A DNA stretch of 64,000 bases, from the NCBI GenBank assembly GCA_030765845.1, contig JAVCDJ010000203.1, positions 83,947 to 147,946 on the forward strand. Reading direction: 5' to 3'. A program made the translations under genes and the position numbers. Position 1 is the stretch's first letter, and each line of letters begins with the position of its first letter. Shown here piece after piece: positions 38,526 through 44,086 of this stretch. This stretch comes from Candidatus Stygibacter australis (GTDB taxonomy: Bacteria; Cloacimonadota; Cloacimonadia; Cloacimonadales; TCS61). The notes under the pieces are model-generated. The model saw only the letters and a program-made list of their open reading frames with translations. It was not told where the DNA came from and searched no databases.

Positions 38526-39080
38526 ATGAAATTCGTGATATTGCTTGTAATTATCTTTATATCTGCCCTGCTGGTGGCAGATGAACCACCGGCTCAAACA
38601 GAACCGGATAATAATGCCAATGCTGAGCAGAATGATCCAGTAATGCAGGCACACCGTTTCTTTGCTGCTGACTATTTTAATAAGTGCTGGGACTATATCG
38701 ACAAAACTGACCGTACCCCCGAGGATGATCTGATGATGATCCATTATGCTCACGCGTCCCGTGCACACTGGGAAGCCATAGGCAACCCTTCAAATCTTGC
38801 TGTTGGTGAATGGCAGATCTCTCATGTGTATGCTATTTTAATTAATCCTTTGGAAGCTGCTACTTATGCTCAAGCCTGTTTGGATATATGCCAGAAGAAT
38901 CAATTAGAGGGTTTTAATAAGGGATTCGCTTATGAAGCACTTGCCAGAGCAGAGACGCTAACGGGCAATGTTACTGCCGCCCAGGAATACATTGATCTTG
39001 GTAAAAAAGAAGCCGAAAAAGTGGAAGAAAAGGAAGACCGCGAATATCTCCTGAATGAACTGAATAATATTATTGAATAA
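38526..39080 (+). CDS. Secreted protein of unknown function
   Basis: 184 aa. SD AGGAGG. Signal peptide MKFVILLVIIFISALLVA. Helical, TPR-like C-terminal part. Confidence 0.6.
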   Translation: MKFVILLVIIFISALLVADEPPAQTEPDNNANAEQNDPVMQAHRFFAADYFNKCWDYIDKTDRTPEDDLMMIHYAHASRAHWEAIGNPSNLAVGEWQISHVYAILINPLEAATYAQACLDICQKNQLEGFNKGFAYEALARAETLTGNVTAAQEYIDLGKKEAEKVEEKEDREYLLNELNNIIE

Positions 39081-39108
39081 AATCTAAATTTCCCAAAATA
39101 AACCTATT

Positions 39109-39153
39109 GCGGGAATTATATCCAGATTACTTACGTCTGAATATAATTCCCGC
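39109..39153 (+). terminator. Long hairpin after the 184-aa gene
   Basis: GCGGGAATTATATCCAGA-ttacttacg-TCTGAATATAATTCCCGC (18-bp stem, 1 mismatch). No clear U-tract. Confidence 0.45.
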
Positions 39154-39237
39154 ATAATTTATAATTAAATACCTCTAAGAATCCCTCTATTGATATCAAT
39201 GATCCACCTCAGACCACCCTGCTTCTGCCATTGAGGA

Positions 39238-39290
39238 GGAACAACAAAGAACTATCTAACATAAAAATGTCACTATGTGCTAAGTTGTTC
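39238..39290 (+). repeat. Family-H hairpin element, copy H4
   Basis: GGAACAACAAAGAAC-TATCTAACATAAAAATGTCACTAT-GTGCTAAGTTGTTC. Confidence 0.85.
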
Positions 39291-39396
39291 TAGTTATATA
39301 CTGGATATATGCCTAAAGAAATGGTGTATAGGGATTTATCTATATTTTGAGGGTTTGGGGGTGGAAAAGCAGGATAAAAACTATAAATTGTAAATA

Positions 39397-39426
39397 TTGA
39401 CAGATATTTAGGAAATAATATATATA
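39397..39426 (+). promoter_or_regulatory. Sigma-70-type promoter candidate for the 501-aa gene
   Basis: TTGACA (39397-39402), 18-nt spacer, then TATATA (39421-39426). Confidence 0.4.
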
Positions 39427-39452
39427 GGGCTATAAAATATAAGGAACAGGAA

Positions 39453-40958
39453 ATGCAAAATAAAATAATGTTCAGTTTACTGATTTTTCTCGTTTTTGTG
39501 CTCAATGCTCAGATAAATGATATTCCAGTGACTCGAAATCTTATGCCGGATGAACATCCTGTGGAATCTTATGAGGATTATATTTCAAATCTGGTACAGG
39601 TAGAAACATCCTATCAGGAAGTGATCAATAGAACTGGTAGGGAAAGAGGCAGTTGGCTGGCATTTGTGGAAAGCGGTTTGTATGACAGTCTGGAAACAGA
39701 GCTTGCAGTGTGGAATTTTGATCTTGAGCAGGAAGGCTATAATCTTATCCTGATCGAGTGGGCGGGGACTTCCGCTGAAGACCTTAAAGATGTTATCATT
39801 AATTATTACAATTTTTATAATATCAATGGAGTGTTTTTACTTGGCAATCTACCGGTTGCCTGGTTTGAATTATGGGAGGATTGGGATGGAGATAATGTTC
39901 AGGGACCAGGTGAAGAGTGGGTAGAATTTCCCATTGATCAGTATTTTGCTGACCTGGATGGTCTTTGGGATGATCTTGATGGAGATGGGGTTTATGATCT
40001 GCATGAAGAAGAACTGGATGCCGAATTGGCAATAAGTCGTTTACGGGCAGATAATTTGAGCTATGCCGGGGCAGAAGTGGAAATCCTTCGCAACTGGTTT
40101 GAGCGTAATAATCTGTATCGTAATGGTGTTCTGGAAGACAGCGATCAGGCATTGGGATATATAGATGATGACTGGGCTTACTGGGATTATGAATATCAGG
40201 CGGCACTGGAGCTATGCTATACCAATGTGGAAATGATATCTGAGGTAAACAGCACTACAGCAGATGATTATCGGGAAAACAGGTGGAGCGGGACTTATGA
40301 ATGGATCCAGGTGCACGTTCACTCAGGACCAGATGCGCATTATTTTTATCAGAATAATGGCAGTAATTACTACCTGGTGCATAATAACGAGATAGCACCT
40401 TATAATCCAGATGCTTTATTTTATAACCTGTTCTGCTGCTCAAATGCCAGATTTACTCAGGCAAACAGTATGGGCAGTCTTTATGTGTTGGGAAACGAGC
40501 ATGGTCTGGCTTCGATAGGCTCAACTAAAACTGGTTCAATGCTGGATTTTGAGTATTTCTACGGTCCCTTAGGTAATGGGGAAGTGATGGGTGAAGCTTT
40601 GAGGCAATGGTGGAATGATACCATGGTGGAATACGAATCTACAGAATATCGGCAGTGCTACAGAAGCTGGTTTTATGGCATGGCACTGATTGGTGATCCG
40701 ACTTTGGTTACAGAATATGAGCCAGTCAGCGTGCTGGGAGATATAGATTATAACGGGCAGATCGAGGCGTTTGATGCATCTATGATCATGAGATATTGCG
40801 TGGGATATGAGCCGGGAATTTCTGCTCCACTACCCTGGGGTGCTGCCAGACGATATTTTGCTGATGTGGATGGCACAGAAGAATTGACCTCTTATGATGC
40901 TGCCTTGATCTTACAATATTTTGTGGGCATAATTACGGAATTCCCCGTAAATGAATAA
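39453..40958 (+). CDS. Secreted protein with C-terminal dockerin-type repeats; N-terminal region gingipain/C25-like (tentative)
   Basis: 501 aa with a signal peptide. Asp-rich calcium-type loops (DLDGLWDDLDGDGVYD). C-terminal pair GDIDYNGQIEAFDASMIMRY / ADVDGTEELTSYDAALILQY. Confidence 0.55.
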   Translation: MQNKIMFSLLIFLVFVLNAQINDIPVTRNLMPDEHPVESYEDYISNLVQVETSYQEVINRTGRERGSWLAFVESGLYDSLETELAVWNFDLEQEGYNLILIEWAGTSAEDLKDVIINYYNFYNINGVFLLGNLPVAWFELWEDWDGDNVQGPGEEWVEFPIDQYFADLDGLWDDLDGDGVYDLHEEELDAELAISRLRADNLSYAGAEVEILRNWFERNNLYRNGVLEDSDQALGYIDDDWAYWDYEYQAALELCYTNVEMISEVNSTTADDYRENRWSGTYEWIQVHVHSGPDAHYFYQNNGSNYYLVHNNEIAPYNPDALFYNLFCCSNARFTQANSMGSLYVLGNEHGLASIGSTKTGSMLDFEYFYGPLGNGEVMGEALRQWWNDTMVEYESTEYRQCYRSWFYGMALIGDPTLVTEYEPVSVLGDIDYNGQIEAFDASMIMRYCVGYEPGISAPLPWGAARRYFADVDGTEELTSYDAALILQYFVGIITEFPVNE

Positions 40959-42138: not shown

Positions 42139-42346
42139 CAGCTAAACTAATTTATCCCTATACATCGGAAGAGCTGAATTTTGGACAGGAGTTTAAAGTG
42201 TCTTGAGCTAATTTAATATTACTTGTATAGTTGAATTATATCTATAGCTCTTTCTTCATGCTGCATAAATTTCTGGATTACTGCTAATTTTGAGAAAAAA
42301 CTTGATTTCTATGATAAGGTATTAACATCTTGTCTAAGGAGTAAAA

Positions 42347-44086
42347 ATGATAAGCAAAATCATTGTAGAGAATTTTAAAGGATTTGAGAGAATTGAATTA
42401 GATTTAGATAAATCAGTCCTTTTCATAGGACCAAATAATTCTGGTAAAACAACAGCCTTACAAGCCTTTGCCCTTTGGGATATTGGTTTAAAAAACTGGT
42501 TAATTAAAAAAGGAAATAAAAATCCAACCCAGCAAAAATCAGGCATTGCCATCAATCGCAAAGACTTAATTAATCTGCCAGTTCCTCAGTCAAAACTTTT
42601 ATGGAATGACCTGCATGTGAGAATGCAGAATAACACTGGTAAACAAATTACAAGTAATATCATGATCAATATATTAGTAGAAGGAAACACAAATGATAAA
42701 TACTGGCAGGTGGGACTGGAATTTGATTACTTCAATGAAGAATCACTTTATTGCCGCCCGTTGAGGAAAAGCAATCAAAAGAATTTTGTACGCTATTCAA
42801 TAGATAATTCTATTACCTATCCGATTTTTGCCTACTTACCTCCTATGTCTGGATTAACTATCAATGAATTTCAGAAACAACCAGGAGAGATTAACTATTT
42901 AATTGGTCAAGGTCAAACAGCTCAAGTACTTAGAAATCTCTGTTATAATTTATTCACTAACAAAACTGAGAAATGGTATAAGCTAAAAAAACATGTCAAA
43001 GAACTATTTGGCATAGATATTTTAGAGCCTACCTGCAATAATATTACTAATGAATTAGAATTGCAATATGATGATAAATCCAAGATCAGACTTGATATTT
43101 CTTGTGCAGGAAGAGGAGTGCAGCAAGTGCTATTGTTGCTCTCATATATTTATTTTAATCCGGGAAGCATATTATTACTTGATGAGCCTGATGCCCACCT
43201 TGAAGTCCTCAAACAACGAGAAATTTATAATTTACTGCTTGATATCGCTTTGGAAAATAAGTCGCAAATTATTGCTGCCAGTCACTCGGAGGTCTTACTG
43301 AATGAAGCTGCTCAATCTTCACAGGTAATCGCTTTCCTGGGCAAACCACATGTAATTAATAATAAGTCACAGGTGGCAAAATCACTAACGACAATTGGCT
43401 GGGAAAATTATTACCAGGCAGAACAAAAAGGTTGGATATTATACCTTGAGAATAATACAGACCTCAAAATTTTGCAGGCATTTGCCCAGAAATTAGATCA
43501 TCCTGCTTTGGTCTATTTAAGAAATCCTTTTGTGAAATATGTAGAAACGAATATTCCTCAAAAAGCCAGAAATCATTTTTATGCTATTAAAGAAGCTAAA
43601 GATAATCTTAATGGTATTGCTGTTTTTGACCATCTGGAAAAGCAGTTGAATAGTGAAGGAGTCTTAGTTGAACGCATGTGGGCACAAAATGAAATTGAAA
43701 ATTATATAACATTTCTGGAACCACTTCGAGAGTTCATTAAATCACAATTTACCATCCAGACAGACAGTTCTCAATTAGATTTTATGAATAAAATCAATAT
43801 AGATAGACCGTTGCAAGTTCTTGATGAAACTATTAAAGAAATATCGTCAGCTTTGAAAATTTTAGGTGAAGATAACGGTGATCTTTGGGGTTCAAAGATA
43901 AAAGCTTCAGAGAAAGTCCTGGATAAAATATTTAAAAATTTCTCTCAGAAAATGAATATCCCCTTAATTCTCAGGAAAAGCGATTATTATCTGCTTGTGA
44001 AATTTCTTCCTCTGGAATTGATAGATAAAGAAATCATTCAAATACTGGATATCATTAATGAAGTAGCAATCAAATCACAAAGTTGA
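42347..44086 (+). CDS. Fused ABC/AAA_15-type ATPase + TOPRIM-like (DUF4435/OLD-type) domain protein; OLD-family / merged PARIS-like candidate defence gene
   Basis: 579 aa. Walker A GPNNSGKTT, Walker B/D-loop ILLLDEPDAHLE, H-loop ASHSE. The C-terminal 250 aa carry ILYLENNTDLKILQAF, GIAVFDHLEK and WAQNEIENYI, patterns I associate with OLD/DUF4435 Toprim domains. Monocistronic and AT-rich. Confidence 0.6.
   Translation: MISKIIVENFKGFERIELDLDKSVLFIGPNNSGKTTALQAFALWDIGLKNWLIKKGNKNPTQQKSGIAINRKDLINLPVPQSKLLWNDLHVRMQNNTGKQITSNIMINILVEGNTNDKYWQVGLEFDYFNEESLYCRPLRKSNQKNFVRYSIDNSITYPIFAYLPPMSGLTINEFQKQPGEINYLIGQGQTAQVLRNLCYNLFTNKTEKWYKLKKHVKELFGIDILEPTCNNITNELELQYDDKSKIRLDISCAGRGVQQVLLLLSYIYFNPGSILLLDEPDAHLEVLKQREIYNLLLDIALENKSQIIAASHSEVLLNEAAQSSQVIAFLGKPHVINNKSQVAKSLTTIGWENYYQAEQKGWILYLENNTDLKILQAFAQKLDHPALVYLRNPFVKYVETNIPQKARNHFYAIKEAKDNLNGIAVFDHLEKQLNSEGVLVERMWAQNEIENYITFLEPLREFIKSQFTIQTDSSQLDFMNKINIDRPLQVLDETIKEISSALKILGEDNGDLWGSKIKASEKVLDKIFKNFSQKMNIPLILRKSDYYLLVKFLPLELIDKEIIQILDIINEVAIKSQS

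What the first reader, a model, noticed from the sequence alone, without database searches (positions are those of the whole stretch)
42347..44086. Solitary fused ABC-ATPase / TOPRIM(DUF4435-like) gene: OLD-family or merged-PARIS-type candidate
A single 579-aa ORF with its own SD is wedged between a lytic transglycosylase gene and a convergent aldolase gene, and it looks AT-rich.

Residues 1-~330 form an SMC/ABC-type ATPase (GPNNSGKTT; ILLLDEPDAHLE; ASHSE). The last ~250 aa carry ILYLENNTDLKIL (Toprim Glu region), GIAVFDHLEK (where a DxD would be expected, apparently degenerate) and WAQNEIENYI.

This domain order is that of OLD-family nucleases. It also matches PARIS (AriA ATPase + AriB DUF4435), for which single-gene fusions have been reported. 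There is no partner helicase (so it is not Gabija-like) and no second gene. The possibly degenerate metal-binding motif is unusual.
Basis: partly seen in the sequence, partly recalled or inferred. Interest (0 to 1): 0.6.

Follow-up and report, generated by a model that had tools for sequence, protein, structure and literature searches.

The report
Divergent solitary OLD-type ATPase–Toprim nuclease gene
This gene encodes a single protein that joins an ABC-type ATPase to a very divergent Toprim nuclease domain, making it an unnamed branch of the OLD/PARIS superfamily of bacterial anti-virus nucleases; it is widespread in uncultured bacteria, and standard domain libraries do not recognise its nuclease half.

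Summary
There is a 579-aa ORF at 42347-44086 (+) with an AAGGAG Shine-Dalgarno site. It lies between an MltC-like transglycosylase gene and a convergent aldolase gene, and its GC is 0.33 against about 0.41 in the flanks.

Residues 1-337 are an intact AAA_15/AAA_21 (OLD-type ABC) ATPase. Residues 338-579 match no Pfam or PADLOC profile. They model confidently (pLDDT 90.6), and the five best PDB fold matches are all OLD Toprim regions or AriB.

Five acidic residues (E368, D372, D428, E449, E451) are near-invariant. The canonical DxD is replaced family-wide by D-x-x-[D/E].

The family has 951 representatives at 50% identity and at least 574 species in more than 15 phyla. All of the 80 loci examined are MAGs. 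It is always fused, has no conserved partner gene, and sits next to restriction-modification genes more often than control genes do.

A full-length sister clade (hhalign 100%, E 7e-40) occurs in E. coli as a P2-prophage moron. It keeps a true DxD and matches PADLOC's merged-PARIS AriAB model through the Toprim domain.

Verdict: this is a real OLD-superfamily ATPase-nuclease, probably a defence gene. It meets none of the four named classes' own criteria, so I file it as a new variant of a known kind, of moderate interest.

The parts
42336..42341 (+). Shine-Dalgarno AAGGAG, five bases upstream of the ATG
   Evidence: Read directly from the sequence.
42347..44086 (+). Complete 579-aa ORF including the stop codon: fused OLD-type ABC ATPase plus divergent Toprim plus helical domain
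   Evidence: It is identical to P0001 from Ca. Stygibacter australis. Full-length model pLDDT is 83.
42347..43357 (+). ABC/SMC-type ATPase domain (residues 1-337), AAA_15/AAA_21
   Evidence: Pfam AAA_15 7.6e-19, AAA_21 8e-17, SMC_N 5.3e-10. PADLOC NsnB, AriA and AbiLi models match the ATPase part only. Foldseek finds TsOLD, PtuA, GajA and SMC heads.
42428..42451 (+). Walker A motif GPNNSGKT (residues 28-35; K34)
   Evidence: G28, P29, N30, N31, G33 and K34 are invariant in 42 homologues.
43100..43126 (+). ABC signature-like motif SCAGRGVQQ (residues 252-260)
   Evidence: G255, R256, G257 and Q260 are invariant. The motif aligns to P2 Old FGHGTQRS.
43169..43204 (+). Walker B and D-loop, ILLLDEPDAHLE (residues 275-286; D279, E280)
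   Evidence: Residues 279-286 are invariant. They align to P2 Old IDEPELYLH.
43277..43291 (+). H-loop ASHSE (residues 311-315; H313)
   Evidence: Invariant. It aligns to P2 Old STHS, where H332 was validated by mutagenesis.
43430..43711 (+). Toprim core (residues 362-455), strand-helix-helix-strand-helix-strand-strand order
   Evidence: C-terminal model pLDDT 90.6, pTM 0.88. Top 5 PDB fold matches are 6njv, 6njw, 6njx, 6nk8 (OLD C-terminal regions) and 8v46_D (AriB). Homologous to the sister clade's DxD-bearing domain.
43433..43465 (+). First Toprim motif WILYLENNTDL: E368 (Toprim Glu, metal A) and D372 (Glu+4, metal B)
   Evidence: hhalign pairs E368 with P2 Old E398 and D372 with E402. E368 is conserved in 126/129 and D372 in 125/128 representatives. 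AriB has the same pattern, E26/D30.
43613..43642 (+). GIAVFDHLEK: D428 (first Asp of the DxD position); the second Asp is absent and E431 sits at +3
   Evidence: D428 is conserved in 141/145. Position 430 is Asp in 6/141. Position 431 is Asp or Glu in 91/144. The motif aligns to the sister clade's invariant D464-R-D466.
43679..43705 (+). WAQNEIENY: E449 and E451 (proposed metal B ligands) following W445
   Evidence: W445 142/146, E449 141/145, E451 141/144, N452 140/144, Y453 138/144. The register matches P2 Old W537/D541/E543 in the best local segment alignment, which is not significant alone. The sister clade has W494/H498/E500 at these positions.
43712..44083 (+). C-terminal helical domain (residues 456-579), carrying conserved K519 (43901-43903) and K544 (43976-43978)
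   Evidence: Helices at 457-468, 486-505, 520-535, 544-553 and 561-577. K519 is conserved in 120/130 and K544 in 124/129. Residues 456-500 form the most variable stretch of this half of the protein.

Best explanation
The gene encodes a single-chain nuclease of the OLD superfamily. An N-terminal OLD-type ABC ATPase is fused to a C-terminal metal-dependent Toprim nuclease and a helical domain. It belongs to a distinct, uncatalogued clade.

Proposed mechanism, by analogy with OLD, Gabija and PARIS:
1. The ATPase self-associates through the ABC head-to-head interface and holds the attached Toprim domain inactive.
2. A cue produced during infection by a phage or other mobile element is sensed by the ATPase. 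The variable surfaces at residues 141-160, 196-245 and 456-500 are the candidate sensing regions.
3. ATP binding or hydrolysis then frees or re-orients the Toprim active site. That site consists of E368, D372, D428, E449 and E451, plus a Lys from the helical domain.
4. The nuclease cuts nucleic acid, either DNA as OLD does or tRNA as AriB does. This stops the invader or the infected cell.

Shown here: the domain composition, the Toprim fold, intact ATPase motifs, five near-invariant acidic residues in the OLD/AriB register, the always-fused solitary architecture, the patchy distribution, adjacency to RM genes, and a prophage-borne sister clade.

Inferred: the defence role, the trigger, the substrate, the oligomeric state, and the idea that E449 stands in for the lost second Asp of DxD.
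For: - ATPase: AAA_15, AAA_21 and SMC_N matches. Walker A, signature, Walker B and H-loop are invariant.
- Fold: the full model's best PDB match is TsOLD 6p74, aligned end to end, with GajA and retron-Eco8 OLD also full length. The C-terminal domain alone gives OLD C-terminal regions at prob 0.96-0.99 and AriB at 0.51 as its top 5 of 350,542 chains.
- Alignment to P2 Old homologues: 90.6% probability, E 1.3e-6, placing E368 and D372 on the mutagenesis-validated E398 and E402.
- Conservation: the five acids are conserved in at least 97% of representatives.
- Spacing: Glu to Asp is 60 residues, against 62 in AriB and 54-55 in OLD.
- Sister clade: 100% probability, E 7e-40 over the full length. 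It has an invariant DxD, matches the AriAB model at 88.8 bits through the Toprim domain, and is a reverse-strand moron in a P2-like prophage.
- Distribution: at least 574 of 185,579 species in more than 15 phyla, at 45-52% identity.
- Neighbours: ResIII upstream in 7/64 and DNA methylase downstream in 5/62, against at most 1/91 each among control genes, p=0.009 and 0.04. Individual loci are embedded in type I RM, MmeI/PLD-SNF2 or toxin-antitoxin clusters.
- Composition: low GC persists in two syntenic genomes.
- Literature: Toprim-linked OLD-ABC modules beside RM/BREX systems are a documented theme (PMC12839542).
Against: - No experiment exists on any member of the family.
- The Toprim assignment rests on weak Foldseek E-values (0.02-0.06, TM 0.41-0.48) plus transitive homology. 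No Toprim-family profile matches the domain (PF20469, PF14491, PF11536, or PADLOC AriB, Old and GajA beyond the ATPase). C-terminal profile-profile comparison with class 1 OLD is not significant.
- The canonical DxD is missing, so nuclease activity is not assured.
- In this window and in most related loci the neighbours are housekeeping genes.
- In this lineage the gene is stably syntenic and evolves like its neighbours: 74% identity and dN 0.17.
- The family is unusually conserved for a defence gene. It is absent from 72,556 plasmids and 50,697 phage genomes.
- The RM enrichment applies to a minority of loci and is only modestly significant.
Confidence: 0.66

Rival explanations
1. It is a true merged PARIS (AriAB) system. 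The ATPase senses anti-restriction proteins such as Ocr, and the fused AriB-type Toprim domain then cleaves host tRNA to abort infection.
For: - The ATPase scores better against AriA models (73.8 and 63.6 bits) than against Old (35.9) or GajA (48).
- The window protein has the E-x3-D motif and a 60-residue Glu-to-Asp spacing, like AriB's E26/D30/D88.
- AriB is among the top 5 fold matches.
- The sister clade hits the AriAB model at 88.8 bits through its Toprim domain.
- RM adjacency fits a guard of restriction systems.
- Merged AriAB genes are documented (PMC9122126, PMC11464382).
Against: - DUF4435 (PF14491), the defining domain, gives no hit even at E<=10.
- PADLOC AriB models give nothing on the C-terminal region.
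- The AriAB model touches only residues 274-341, the end of the ATPase, at 41.8 bits.
- The AriB fold match has probability of only 0.51 and TM 0.26.
- AriB has D-x-E where this family has D-x-x-[D/E].
- No trigger or substrate data exist.
Confidence: 0.13
2. It is simply a divergent class 1 OLD nuclease like P2 Old, TsOLD or Vibrio OLD. It would be a solitary DNA exonuclease or nickase whose ATPase modulates DNA cleavage.
For: - It is a solitary gene with no helicase or reverse-transcriptase partner, as the review describes for class 1 (PMC10568477).
- The best full-length fold match is TsOLD 6p74.
- hhalign to P2 Old homologues gives 90.6% probability.
- The W-x3-[D/E]-x-E motif sits in register with P2 Old D541/E543.
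Against: - PF20469 (OLD-like TOPRIM) is on record for all but one of the 120 listed P2 Old relatives, the exception being a truncated 335-aa entry, and for none of the 120 listed relatives of this protein.
- The C-terminal profiles are not significantly similar.
- Class 1 lacks a C-terminal helical domain (PMC7049728), and this protein has one.
- The DxD is missing.
- The ATPase is nearer to AriA, NsnB and AbiLi than to Old.
Confidence: 0.12
3. It is a housekeeping or accessory genome-maintenance ATPase-nuclease, comparable to RecF/RecN/SbcC-type ABC proteins or RecR-type Toprim proteins, and not an immunity gene.
For: - In this lineage it is stably syntenic among housekeeping genes and is under purifying selection like them.
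- Most related loci have housekeeping neighbours.
- It has very high cross-phylum conservation and uniform length.
- It is absent from plasmids and phage genomes.
Against: - It is present in only about 0.3% of species representatives, scattered over more than 15 phyla and one archaeon at similar identity, which points to horizontal transfer rather than a core function.
- Its GC composition looks foreign.
- It is enriched next to RM genes relative to controls.
- Some loci lie in RM or toxin-antitoxin islands.
- The sister clade is a prophage moron.
- The nearest characterised relatives are all defence proteins.
Confidence: 0.06
4. The Toprim domain is catalytically dead because DxD has been lost. 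It would serve only as a nucleic-acid-binding or regulatory module of an ATPase whose effector lies elsewhere.
For: - The second Asp of DxD is absent in 135 of 141 representatives.
- No nuclease-family profile matches the domain.
Against: - Five acidic residues, an invariant Trp, Asn and Tyr, and two Lys residues are conserved at 92-98%. That level of conservation is hard to explain without a catalytic or metal site.
- AriB is active with five acids.
- There is no conserved neighbouring effector gene.
Confidence: 0.03

Closest known systems
Class 1 OLD nucleases (phage P2 Old, Thermus scotoductus OLD 6P74)
   Same: [quoted passage not shown]
- It is a solitary gene.
- E368 and D372 align to P2 Old E398 and E402.
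- It has a W-x3-[D/E]-x-E motif like P2 Old W537/D541/E543.
- TsOLD is the best full-length fold match.
   Different: - There is no PF20469 match.
- DxD is replaced by D-x-x-[D/E].
- The Toprim is compact: 21-23 residues from D428 to the E-x-E motif, against 88 in P2 Old.
- It has a C-terminal helical domain, which class 1 lacks.
- The ATPase is closer to AriA, NsnB and AbiLi than to Old.
Merged PARIS (AriAB; class 4 OLD)
   Same: - It is a fused AAA_15/21 ATPase plus compact Toprim.
- It has an E-x3-D motif and a Glu-to-Asp spacing of about 60 residues, with five conserved acids.
- AriB is among the top fold matches.
- The sister clade matches the AriAB profile through its Toprim domain.
- It tends to sit near RM systems.
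   Different: - There is no DUF4435 match.
- The AriAB profile covers only the end of the ATPase in this protein.
- AriB has D-x-E where this family has D-x-x-[D/E].
- The trigger and the tRNA target are untested.
Uncharacterised enterobacterial/pseudomonad sister clade (about 598 aa, e.g. E. coli WP_061548811.1, a moron in a P2-like prophage)
   Same: It is a full-length homologue (hhalign 100%, E 7e-40, 522 columns) with identical architecture. The shared motifs are LPPMSG/LPPFAG, GQGQ/GQGL, DEPDAHL, the Toprim Glu with Asp at +4, and W...IENY.
   Different: - It is only about 25% identical.
- It keeps an orthodox, invariant D-R-D.
- It has His where this family has E449.
- It is found in cultured Proteobacteria and on prophages, whereas this family was found only in MAG chromosomes among the 80 loci examined.
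Gabija GajA (class 2 OLD)
   Same: It has the ABC ATPase plus Toprim architecture. It also has a C-terminal helical region after the Toprim core, like the class 2 C-terminal regions (6NK8, 6NJV) that are the best matches for the isolated domain.
   Different: There is no GajB (UvrD-like) helicase next to it, here or in related loci. There is no GajA profile match beyond the ATPase.
AbiL (AbiLi/AbiLii), MADS3-4 and Menshen NsnB: other AAA_15/21 ATPase systems with Toprim-type partners
   Same: The ATPase is of the same AAA_15/21 (OLD-ABC) type. NsnB, AbiLi and mad3 models are among the best PADLOC hits.
   Different: Those are multi-gene systems with separate RloB, DUF4276 or NsnC effectors. 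NsnB has a degenerate Walker B and a DUF3696 tail. Here the nuclease is fused, Walker B is intact, and there is no partner gene.

Membership tests
OLD superfamily (ABC ATPase + Toprim nucleases) | N-terminal ABC-type ATPase with intact Walker A, Walker B and H-loop | tested here: met
   AAA_15 7.6e-19, AAA_21 8e-17. The motifs are invariant. The domain aligns to P2 Old homologues at 90.6% probability.
OLD superfamily (ABC ATPase + Toprim nucleases) | C-terminal domain with a Toprim fold on the same polypeptide | tested here: met
   For the isolated C-terminal model (pLDDT 90.6), the top 5 PDB matches are OLD C-terminal regions (prob 0.96-0.99) and AriB. E-values are weak (0.02-0.06), and strand order could not be inspected because coordinates are not exposed.
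Toprim domain (Aravind 1998 definition) | Conserved Glu after strand 1 | tested here: met
   E368 is conserved in 126/129 representatives and aligns to P2 Old E398.
Toprim domain (Aravind 1998 definition) | Conserved DxD after strand 3 | tested here: not met
   D428 is conserved (141/145), but position 430 is Asp in only 6/141. An acid occurs at position 431 in 91/144. The sister clade has an invariant D-R-D at the aligned position.
OLD class 1 (P2 Old / TsOLD type) | Solitary gene with no adjacent UvrD-like helicase or reverse transcriptase | tested here: met
   The window neighbours are an MltC-like gene and an aldolase gene. No helicase or RT partner recurs among 64 upstream and 62 downstream neighbours.
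OLD class 1 (P2 Old / TsOLD type) | OLD-like TOPRIM sequence family (PF20469) | tested here: not met
   There is no hit at E<=10. One of 23 family members hits at E 0.065. As a control, all listed P2 Old relatives with a complete C-terminal half carry PF20469.
OLD class 1 (P2 Old / TsOLD type) | Six-ligand two-metal site (E, DxD, acid at Glu+4, [S/T/D]xE) plus a Lys or Arg | tested here: inconclusive
   Five of the six ligands are conserved in register (E368, D372, D428, E449, E451), and the second Asp is missing. K519 and K544 are candidates for the Lys, but spatial convergence could not be checked.
OLD class 1 (P2 Old / TsOLD type) | No C-terminal helical domain after the Toprim core (as in TsOLD) | tested here: not met
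   Residues 456-579 form a bundle of five helices.
Gabija (OLD class 2) | [quoted passage not shown] | tested here: not met
   Downstream in the window is a convergent aldolase gene. No UvrD family appears among the recurrent downstream neighbours.
Retron-associated OLD (class 3) | Adjacent reverse transcriptase and msr/msd ncRNA | tested here: not met
   No reverse-transcriptase domain is found in the window neighbours or among recurrent neighbours. The ncRNA was not searched for.
PARIS (OLD class 4), two-gene or merged | DUF4435 (PF14491, at least 27 bits) Toprim domain with an AAA_15/21 ATPase (PMC9122126) | tested here: not met
   The ATPase part is met. DUF4435 gives no hit at E<=10 on the C-terminal region, nor in any of 23 family members at E<=1. 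PADLOC AriB models give nothing.
PARIS (OLD class 4), two-gene or merged | Match to a merged AriAB profile across both halves | tested here: inconclusive
   PADLOC AriAB (PDLC02981) gives 41.8 bits, covering only residues 274-341. The sister clade gives 88.8 bits over residues 311-518, including its Toprim domain. The DefenseFinder merged profiles, with thresholds of 80 and 20, were not available.
PARIS (OLD class 4), two-gene or merged | Activation by anti-restriction proteins (Ocr) and tRNA cleavage | not testable with these tools
   This requires co-expression and in vitro cleavage assays.
Menshen (NsnABC) | NsnA (DUF262) and NsnC neighbours, with an NsnB that has a DUF3696 tail and a degenerate Walker B | tested here: not met
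   NsnB is the best PADLOC hit, but only over the ATPase. There are no such neighbours, Walker B (DE) is intact, and there is no DUF3696.

The most novel reading that the evidence does not exclude
This clade and its prophage-borne sister clade together form a fifth, so far unnamed class of OLD-superfamily immune nucleases. It would be a self-contained single-gene system in which one metal ligand has moved from the DxD motif to the W-x3-E-x-E motif. The sister clade has D-R-D with His-x-Glu, and this clade has D-x-x-[D/E] with Glu-x-Glu. The class would act as a guard or backup for restriction-modification systems in many uncultured phyla. Its unusually strong conservation would then suggest that it senses a conserved host or phage feature rather than a fast-evolving phage protein.
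Probability: 0.3. Interest if true: 0.55.

Novelty: new variant of a known kind. Interest (0 to 1): 0.42.

Why it matters
ABC ATPase plus Toprim nucleases (Old, Gabija, retron OLD, PARIS) are a major theme in bacterial immunity. The review literature lists two open questions: whether a solitary OLD-type protein can defend on its own, and how many classes exist (PMC10568477).

This clade is large: at least 574 species and 951 clusters at 50% identity. Current nuclease-domain profiles do not see it, so defence-system censuses either miss it or label it from its ATPase half alone.

It offers a natural experiment in Toprim active-site plasticity, because DxD is lost while a nearby Glu is gained. 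Through its E. coli prophage sister gene, it also offers a tractable way to test single-gene OLD-type defence.

If it proves to be ordinary, it still extends the known sequence space of the family and argues for a new profile model.

Tried and rejected
- Direct profile detection of the C-terminal domain failed. This covers Pfam at E<=10, PADLOC at E<=10, a profile against all PDB sequences, every family member against Pfam, and the sister-clade C-terminal profile against PDB sequences. The only Pfam hit, DUF5844 (E 0.0097, 16.7 bits against a cutoff of 25), was dismissed as spurious.
- hhalign of the C-terminal sub-alignments against the class 1 OLD Toprim region was not significant (E 0.1 local; the global run was meaningless). 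The restricted-segment alignment gave the expected W/E/E register, but at E of about 0.1.
- Model coordinates are not exposed, so I could not measure whether the conserved acids converge on one site.
- Menshen was considered because NsnB was the top PADLOC hit. I rejected it on neighbourhood and motifs.
- A conserved partner gene was sought in 64 upstream and 62 downstream neighbours, and none was found. The recurrent 348-aa oxidoreductase and the aldo-keto reductase look like lineage-specific synteny, apparently in Poribacteria.
- A recent-insertion hypothesis was rejected. The 74%-identical orthologue occupies the same slot and has diverged like its neighbours.
- Plasmid and phage carriage: there is no full-length match in PLSDB or INPHARED, and only 2 in IMG/VR.
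- dN/dS is unusable as a ratio because dS is saturated.
- A literature search for DUF3226 found nothing.
Full report
**1. Observation**

The ORF is exactly as described: 42347-44086 on the + strand, 579 aa, ATG start. An AAGGAG Shine-Dalgarno site lies at 42336-42341.

Upstream, after a 208-bp gap, is an MltC-like lytic transglycosylase gene (SLT and MltC_N domains). Downstream, 58 bp away and convergent, is a PLP-dependent threonine-aldolase-like gene.

The gene is AT-rich relative to its surroundings. Its GC is 0.331 and GC3 0.288, against 0.395-0.425 and 0.33-0.43 for the flanking genes. All quoted motifs are present. The exact protein is on record as an 'AAA family ATPase' of a Candidatus Stygibacter australis MAG, phylum Cloacimonadota.

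**2. The N-terminal half**

Residues 1-337 match AAA_15 (7.6e-19), AAA_21 (8e-17) and SMC_N. In PADLOC they match the ATPases of Menshen (NsnB), PARIS (AriA), AbiL, MADS, Gabija, Septu and Old, always over the ATPase part only. The following are invariant in 42 homologues from many phyla:
- Walker A, GPNNSGKT.
- The signature-like motif S-x-x-GRG-x-QQ.
- Walker B and D-loop, LLLDEPDAHLE.
- The H-loop, ASHSE.

This is therefore a catalytically competent OLD-type ABC ATPase.

**3. The C-terminal half**

Sequence profiles see nothing here:
- Pfam and PADLOC give no real hit even at E<=10.
- A family profile finds no PDB sequence, although OLD, GajA and AriB are all in the PDB.
- None of 23 family members touches DUF4435 or DUF3226, and one grazes PF20469 at E 0.065.

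As a control, the listed P2 Old relatives carry PF20469, the only exception being a truncated 335-aa entry, and none of the 120 listed relatives of this protein does.

Structure prediction is confident: the full-length model has pLDDT 83, and the C-terminal domain alone has pLDDT 90.6 and pTM 0.88. It gives a strand-helix-helix-strand-helix-strand-strand core at residues 363-444, followed by a helical bundle.

Foldseek results against the PDB:
- The full model's best match is the class 1 OLD nuclease of Thermus scotoductus (6p74), aligned end to end. GajA and retron-Eco8 OLD also align over their full length, whereas PtuA and SMC heads match the ATPase only.
- For the isolated C-terminal model, the five best of 350,542 chains are the Xanthomonas and Burkholderia OLD C-terminal regions (6njv, 6njw, 6njx, 6nk8; prob 0.96-0.99) and AriB (8v46_D; prob 0.51).

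The E-values are weak (0.02-0.06) and TM is 0.41-0.48, so the domain is a very divergent Toprim of the OLD type. The viral fold library returned nothing comparable.

**4. Residue-level mapping**

The OLD literature defines the active site (PMC7049728):

| Role | P2 Old | TsOLD | BpOLD |
|---|---|---|---|
| Metal A: Toprim Glu | E398 | E377 | E400 |
| Metal A: DxD | D453, D455 | D431, D433 | D455, D457 |
| Metal B: acid at Glu+4 | E402 | D381 | E404 |
| Metal B: [S/T/D]xE | D541, E543 | S478, E480 | T506, E508 |
| Lys or Arg | K550 | R487 | K562 |

AriB uses E26, D30, D88, E90 and E122 (PMC11464382).

Profile-profile alignment of the family to 25 P2 Old homologues gives 90.6% probability (E 1.3e-6). 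The alignment runs from residue 1 to residue 384 and puts E368 on E398 and D372 on E402. Beyond that point automated alignment fails. The best local alignment of the remaining segments puts W445, E449 and E451 on P2 Old W537, D541 and E543, but this is not significant alone.

Conservation across 150 representatives at 50% identity:

| Position | Conserved in |
|---|---|
| E368 | 126/129 |
| D372 | 125/128 |
| D428 | 141/145 |
| W445 | 142/146 |
| E449 | 141/145 |
| E451 | 141/144 |
| K519 | 120/130 |
| K544 | 124/129 |

The second Asp of DxD is the exception. Position 430 is Asp in 6 of 141, and position 431 is Asp or Glu in 91 of 144. The Glu-to-Asp spacing of 60 residues is closer to AriB (62) than to OLD (54-55).

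**5. A sister clade bridges to known families**

A scan of viral contigs found proteins of about 598 aa at about 25% identity whose match extends through the Toprim core. The evidence on them:
- hhalign of the family to one of them gives 99.8% probability. Against a 24-sequence alignment of that clade it gives 100%, E 7e-40, over 522 columns covering the full length.
- The C-terminal domains alone give 95.5%, E 1.6e-8.
- The sister clade has an invariant D464-R-D466 exactly where this family has F-D-[R/H]-[L/I]-[D/E]. It has H498 where this family has E449. Each clade thus keeps five acids, with one ligand apparently relocated. This last point is inference.
- Its top or second PADLOC hit is the merged-PARIS AriAB model, at 88.8 bits, with protein residues 311-518 matching model positions 332-536 of 694. 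That stretch includes the Toprim domain. It also gives a sub-threshold DUF3226 match, 24.3 bits against a cutoff of 27.
- It occurs in E. coli, Klebsiella, Pseudomonas and Burkholderia. Some sources call it 'ATP-dependent nuclease'.
- In E. coli EC931 it is a reverse-strand moron in a P2-like prophage, between the baseplate V gene and the virion-morphogenesis gene. This is the typical setting of prophage defence cargo.

**6. Family size, distribution and context**

An exhaustive profile search with the C-terminal domain finds 951 representatives (E<=1e-3). Every complete protein among the 150 listed (546-632 aa) has the domain at about residues 330-580, so the fusion is obligate. The shorter entries look like fragments, although P0162 starts with Met at the domain boundary.

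In one-genome-per-species data there are at least 574 loci among 185,579 species. The 80 best are spread over more than 15 phyla plus one Bathyarchaeota MAG. All 80 are MAGs, at 45-52% identity. There is no full-length copy in 72,556 plasmids or 50,697 phage genomes, and there are 2 in IMG/VR.

Neighbourhoods show no conserved partner. A minority of loci adjoin RM genes: ResIII upstream in 7 of 64 and N6_N4 DNA methylase downstream in 5 of 62, against at most 1 of 91 each among control genes at least 7 kb away. Fisher's exact test gives p=0.009 and 0.04, and 0.047 for either component. Individual loci sit beside:
- type I hsdS/hsdR plus YgjP;
- an MmeI-type methylase plus PLD-SNF2 helicase plus YhcG plus RhuM;
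- PemK/MazE, RelB/YafQ, PIN, and UPF0175/DUF3368 modules;
- Macro, KilA-N and a transposase.

In the window itself the neighbours are housekeeping genes. The 74%-identical orthologue occupies the same slot in a related genome and has diverged like its neighbours: flanking genes are 47-83% identical, and the gene's dN of 0.17 compares with 0.12-0.32 for them, with dS saturated. Here it is therefore an old, retained acquisition that still has foreign-looking composition.

**7. Mechanism**

The best-supported model is an OLD/PARIS-type ATPase-controlled nuclease. The ABC ATPase oligomerises and restrains the fused Toprim domain. An infection cue is sensed through the ATPase. ATP-dependent rearrangement then exposes a two-metal Toprim site, which cleaves DNA (as OLD does) or tRNA (as AriB does).

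The most variable regions are residues 141-160, 196-245 and 456-500. These are candidate recognition surfaces.

Everything beyond fold, motifs and context is inference from the characterised relatives (PMC10568477, PMC7049728, PMC11464382, PMC12409363). A 2026 survey already describes Toprim-linked OLD-ABC modules as backup effectors beside BREX and RM-like systems (PMC12839542), so the general theme is known.

**8. Comparison and novelty**

The gene is a member of the OLD superfamily by architecture and fold. It fails the operational criteria of each named class:
- Class 1: no PF20469, no DxD, and an extra helical domain.
- Class 2: no GajB helicase.
- Class 3: no reverse transcriptase.
- Class 4 (PARIS): no DUF4435, and the AriAB profile matches only the end of the ATPase.

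One merged-PARIS profile has a published threshold of only 20 bits, so automated pipelines may call this gene PARIS from its ATPase half alone. I classify it as a new variant of a known kind.

Interest is moderate. It is not surprising in kind. It is, however, a large clade missed by nuclease-domain profiles, with an altered metal-binding motif and a tractable E. coli sister gene. It also bears on the open question of whether solitary OLD-type proteins defend on their own.

**9. Weak points**

- The Foldseek statistics for the isolated domain are weak.
- I could not inspect coordinates.
- The RM enrichment rests on crude ORF calling and small numbers.
- The strong conservation and frequent housekeeping context are atypical for defence genes and remain unexplained.

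Noticed in passing
L114 9001-10797 (E. coli EC931, NZ_CP049118.1 4320122-4321918); also L097 7935-9731: An uncharacterised 598-aa ABC plus Toprim gene (WP_061548811.1) sits as a reverse-strand moron between the baseplate V gene and the virion-morphogenesis gene of a P2-like prophage. It is present in 5 of 5,426 complete E. coli genomes. It is a full-length homologue of the window protein with an orthodox DxD, and would be an experimentally tractable proxy.
   Followed up: partly
L114 19603-19797 (cut at the locus end): A 'TIGR02391 family protein' gene lies just beyond the portal gene of the same P2-like prophage. This is the position of the P2 old/tin hotspot, so it may be another cargo gene.
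   Followed up: no
P0162 (236 aa), P0140 (248 aa): These are short, divergent members of the C-terminal-domain family with a canonical DxD (LVVDSDKK and LAVIDRDQ). P0162 begins with Met right at the domain boundary, so a split two-gene version like AriA/AriB may exist. They could also be contig-truncated fragments.
   Followed up: no
L025 10001-11710 (Candidatus Bathyarchaeota MAG, 1.0-Mb contig): A 48%-identical full-length copy lies in an archaeal MAG. This is either cross-domain transfer or a binning artefact.
   Followed up: no
L002 and L003 7735-7938: A 67-aa ORF with no Pfam hit starts 4 bases after the homologue's stop codon and is followed by a RhuM gene, inside an RM-like island (PLD-SNF2 helicase, YhcG, MmeI-type methylase). 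No equivalent small ORF exists in the window.
   Followed up: no
L009 2753-4389: In the related genome that holds the 74% orthologue, a 379-aa AAA_21-only ATPase gene and a 128-aa ORF lie downstream of RecQ, about 4 kb upstream of the syntenic block. This could be a second, separate ATPase-based system. I did not check whether the window has a counterpart.
   Followed up: no
window 39453-40958: This 501-aa protein has one Pfam match, a C-terminal type I dockerin domain (E 5.7e-5), which is unusual outside cellulosome producers. It is conserved (71% identity) in the related genome.
   Followed up: no
window 43748-43768 (residues 468-474): The window protein and its closest relatives carry a short insertion (IQTDSSQ) in the linker after the Toprim core, which most family members lack. 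The region has low model confidence (pLDDT below 50 at residues 471-482).
   Followed up: partly
window 39000-39500: A second local GC trough (0.31) falls in the intergenic region upstream of the dockerin-protein gene.
   Followed up: no
L090 8001-9698 and L091 2130-3821 (IMG/VR contigs): These are the only two full-length family members on contigs classed as viral. I did not examine whether they are true prophage cargo or host flanks.
   Followed up: no
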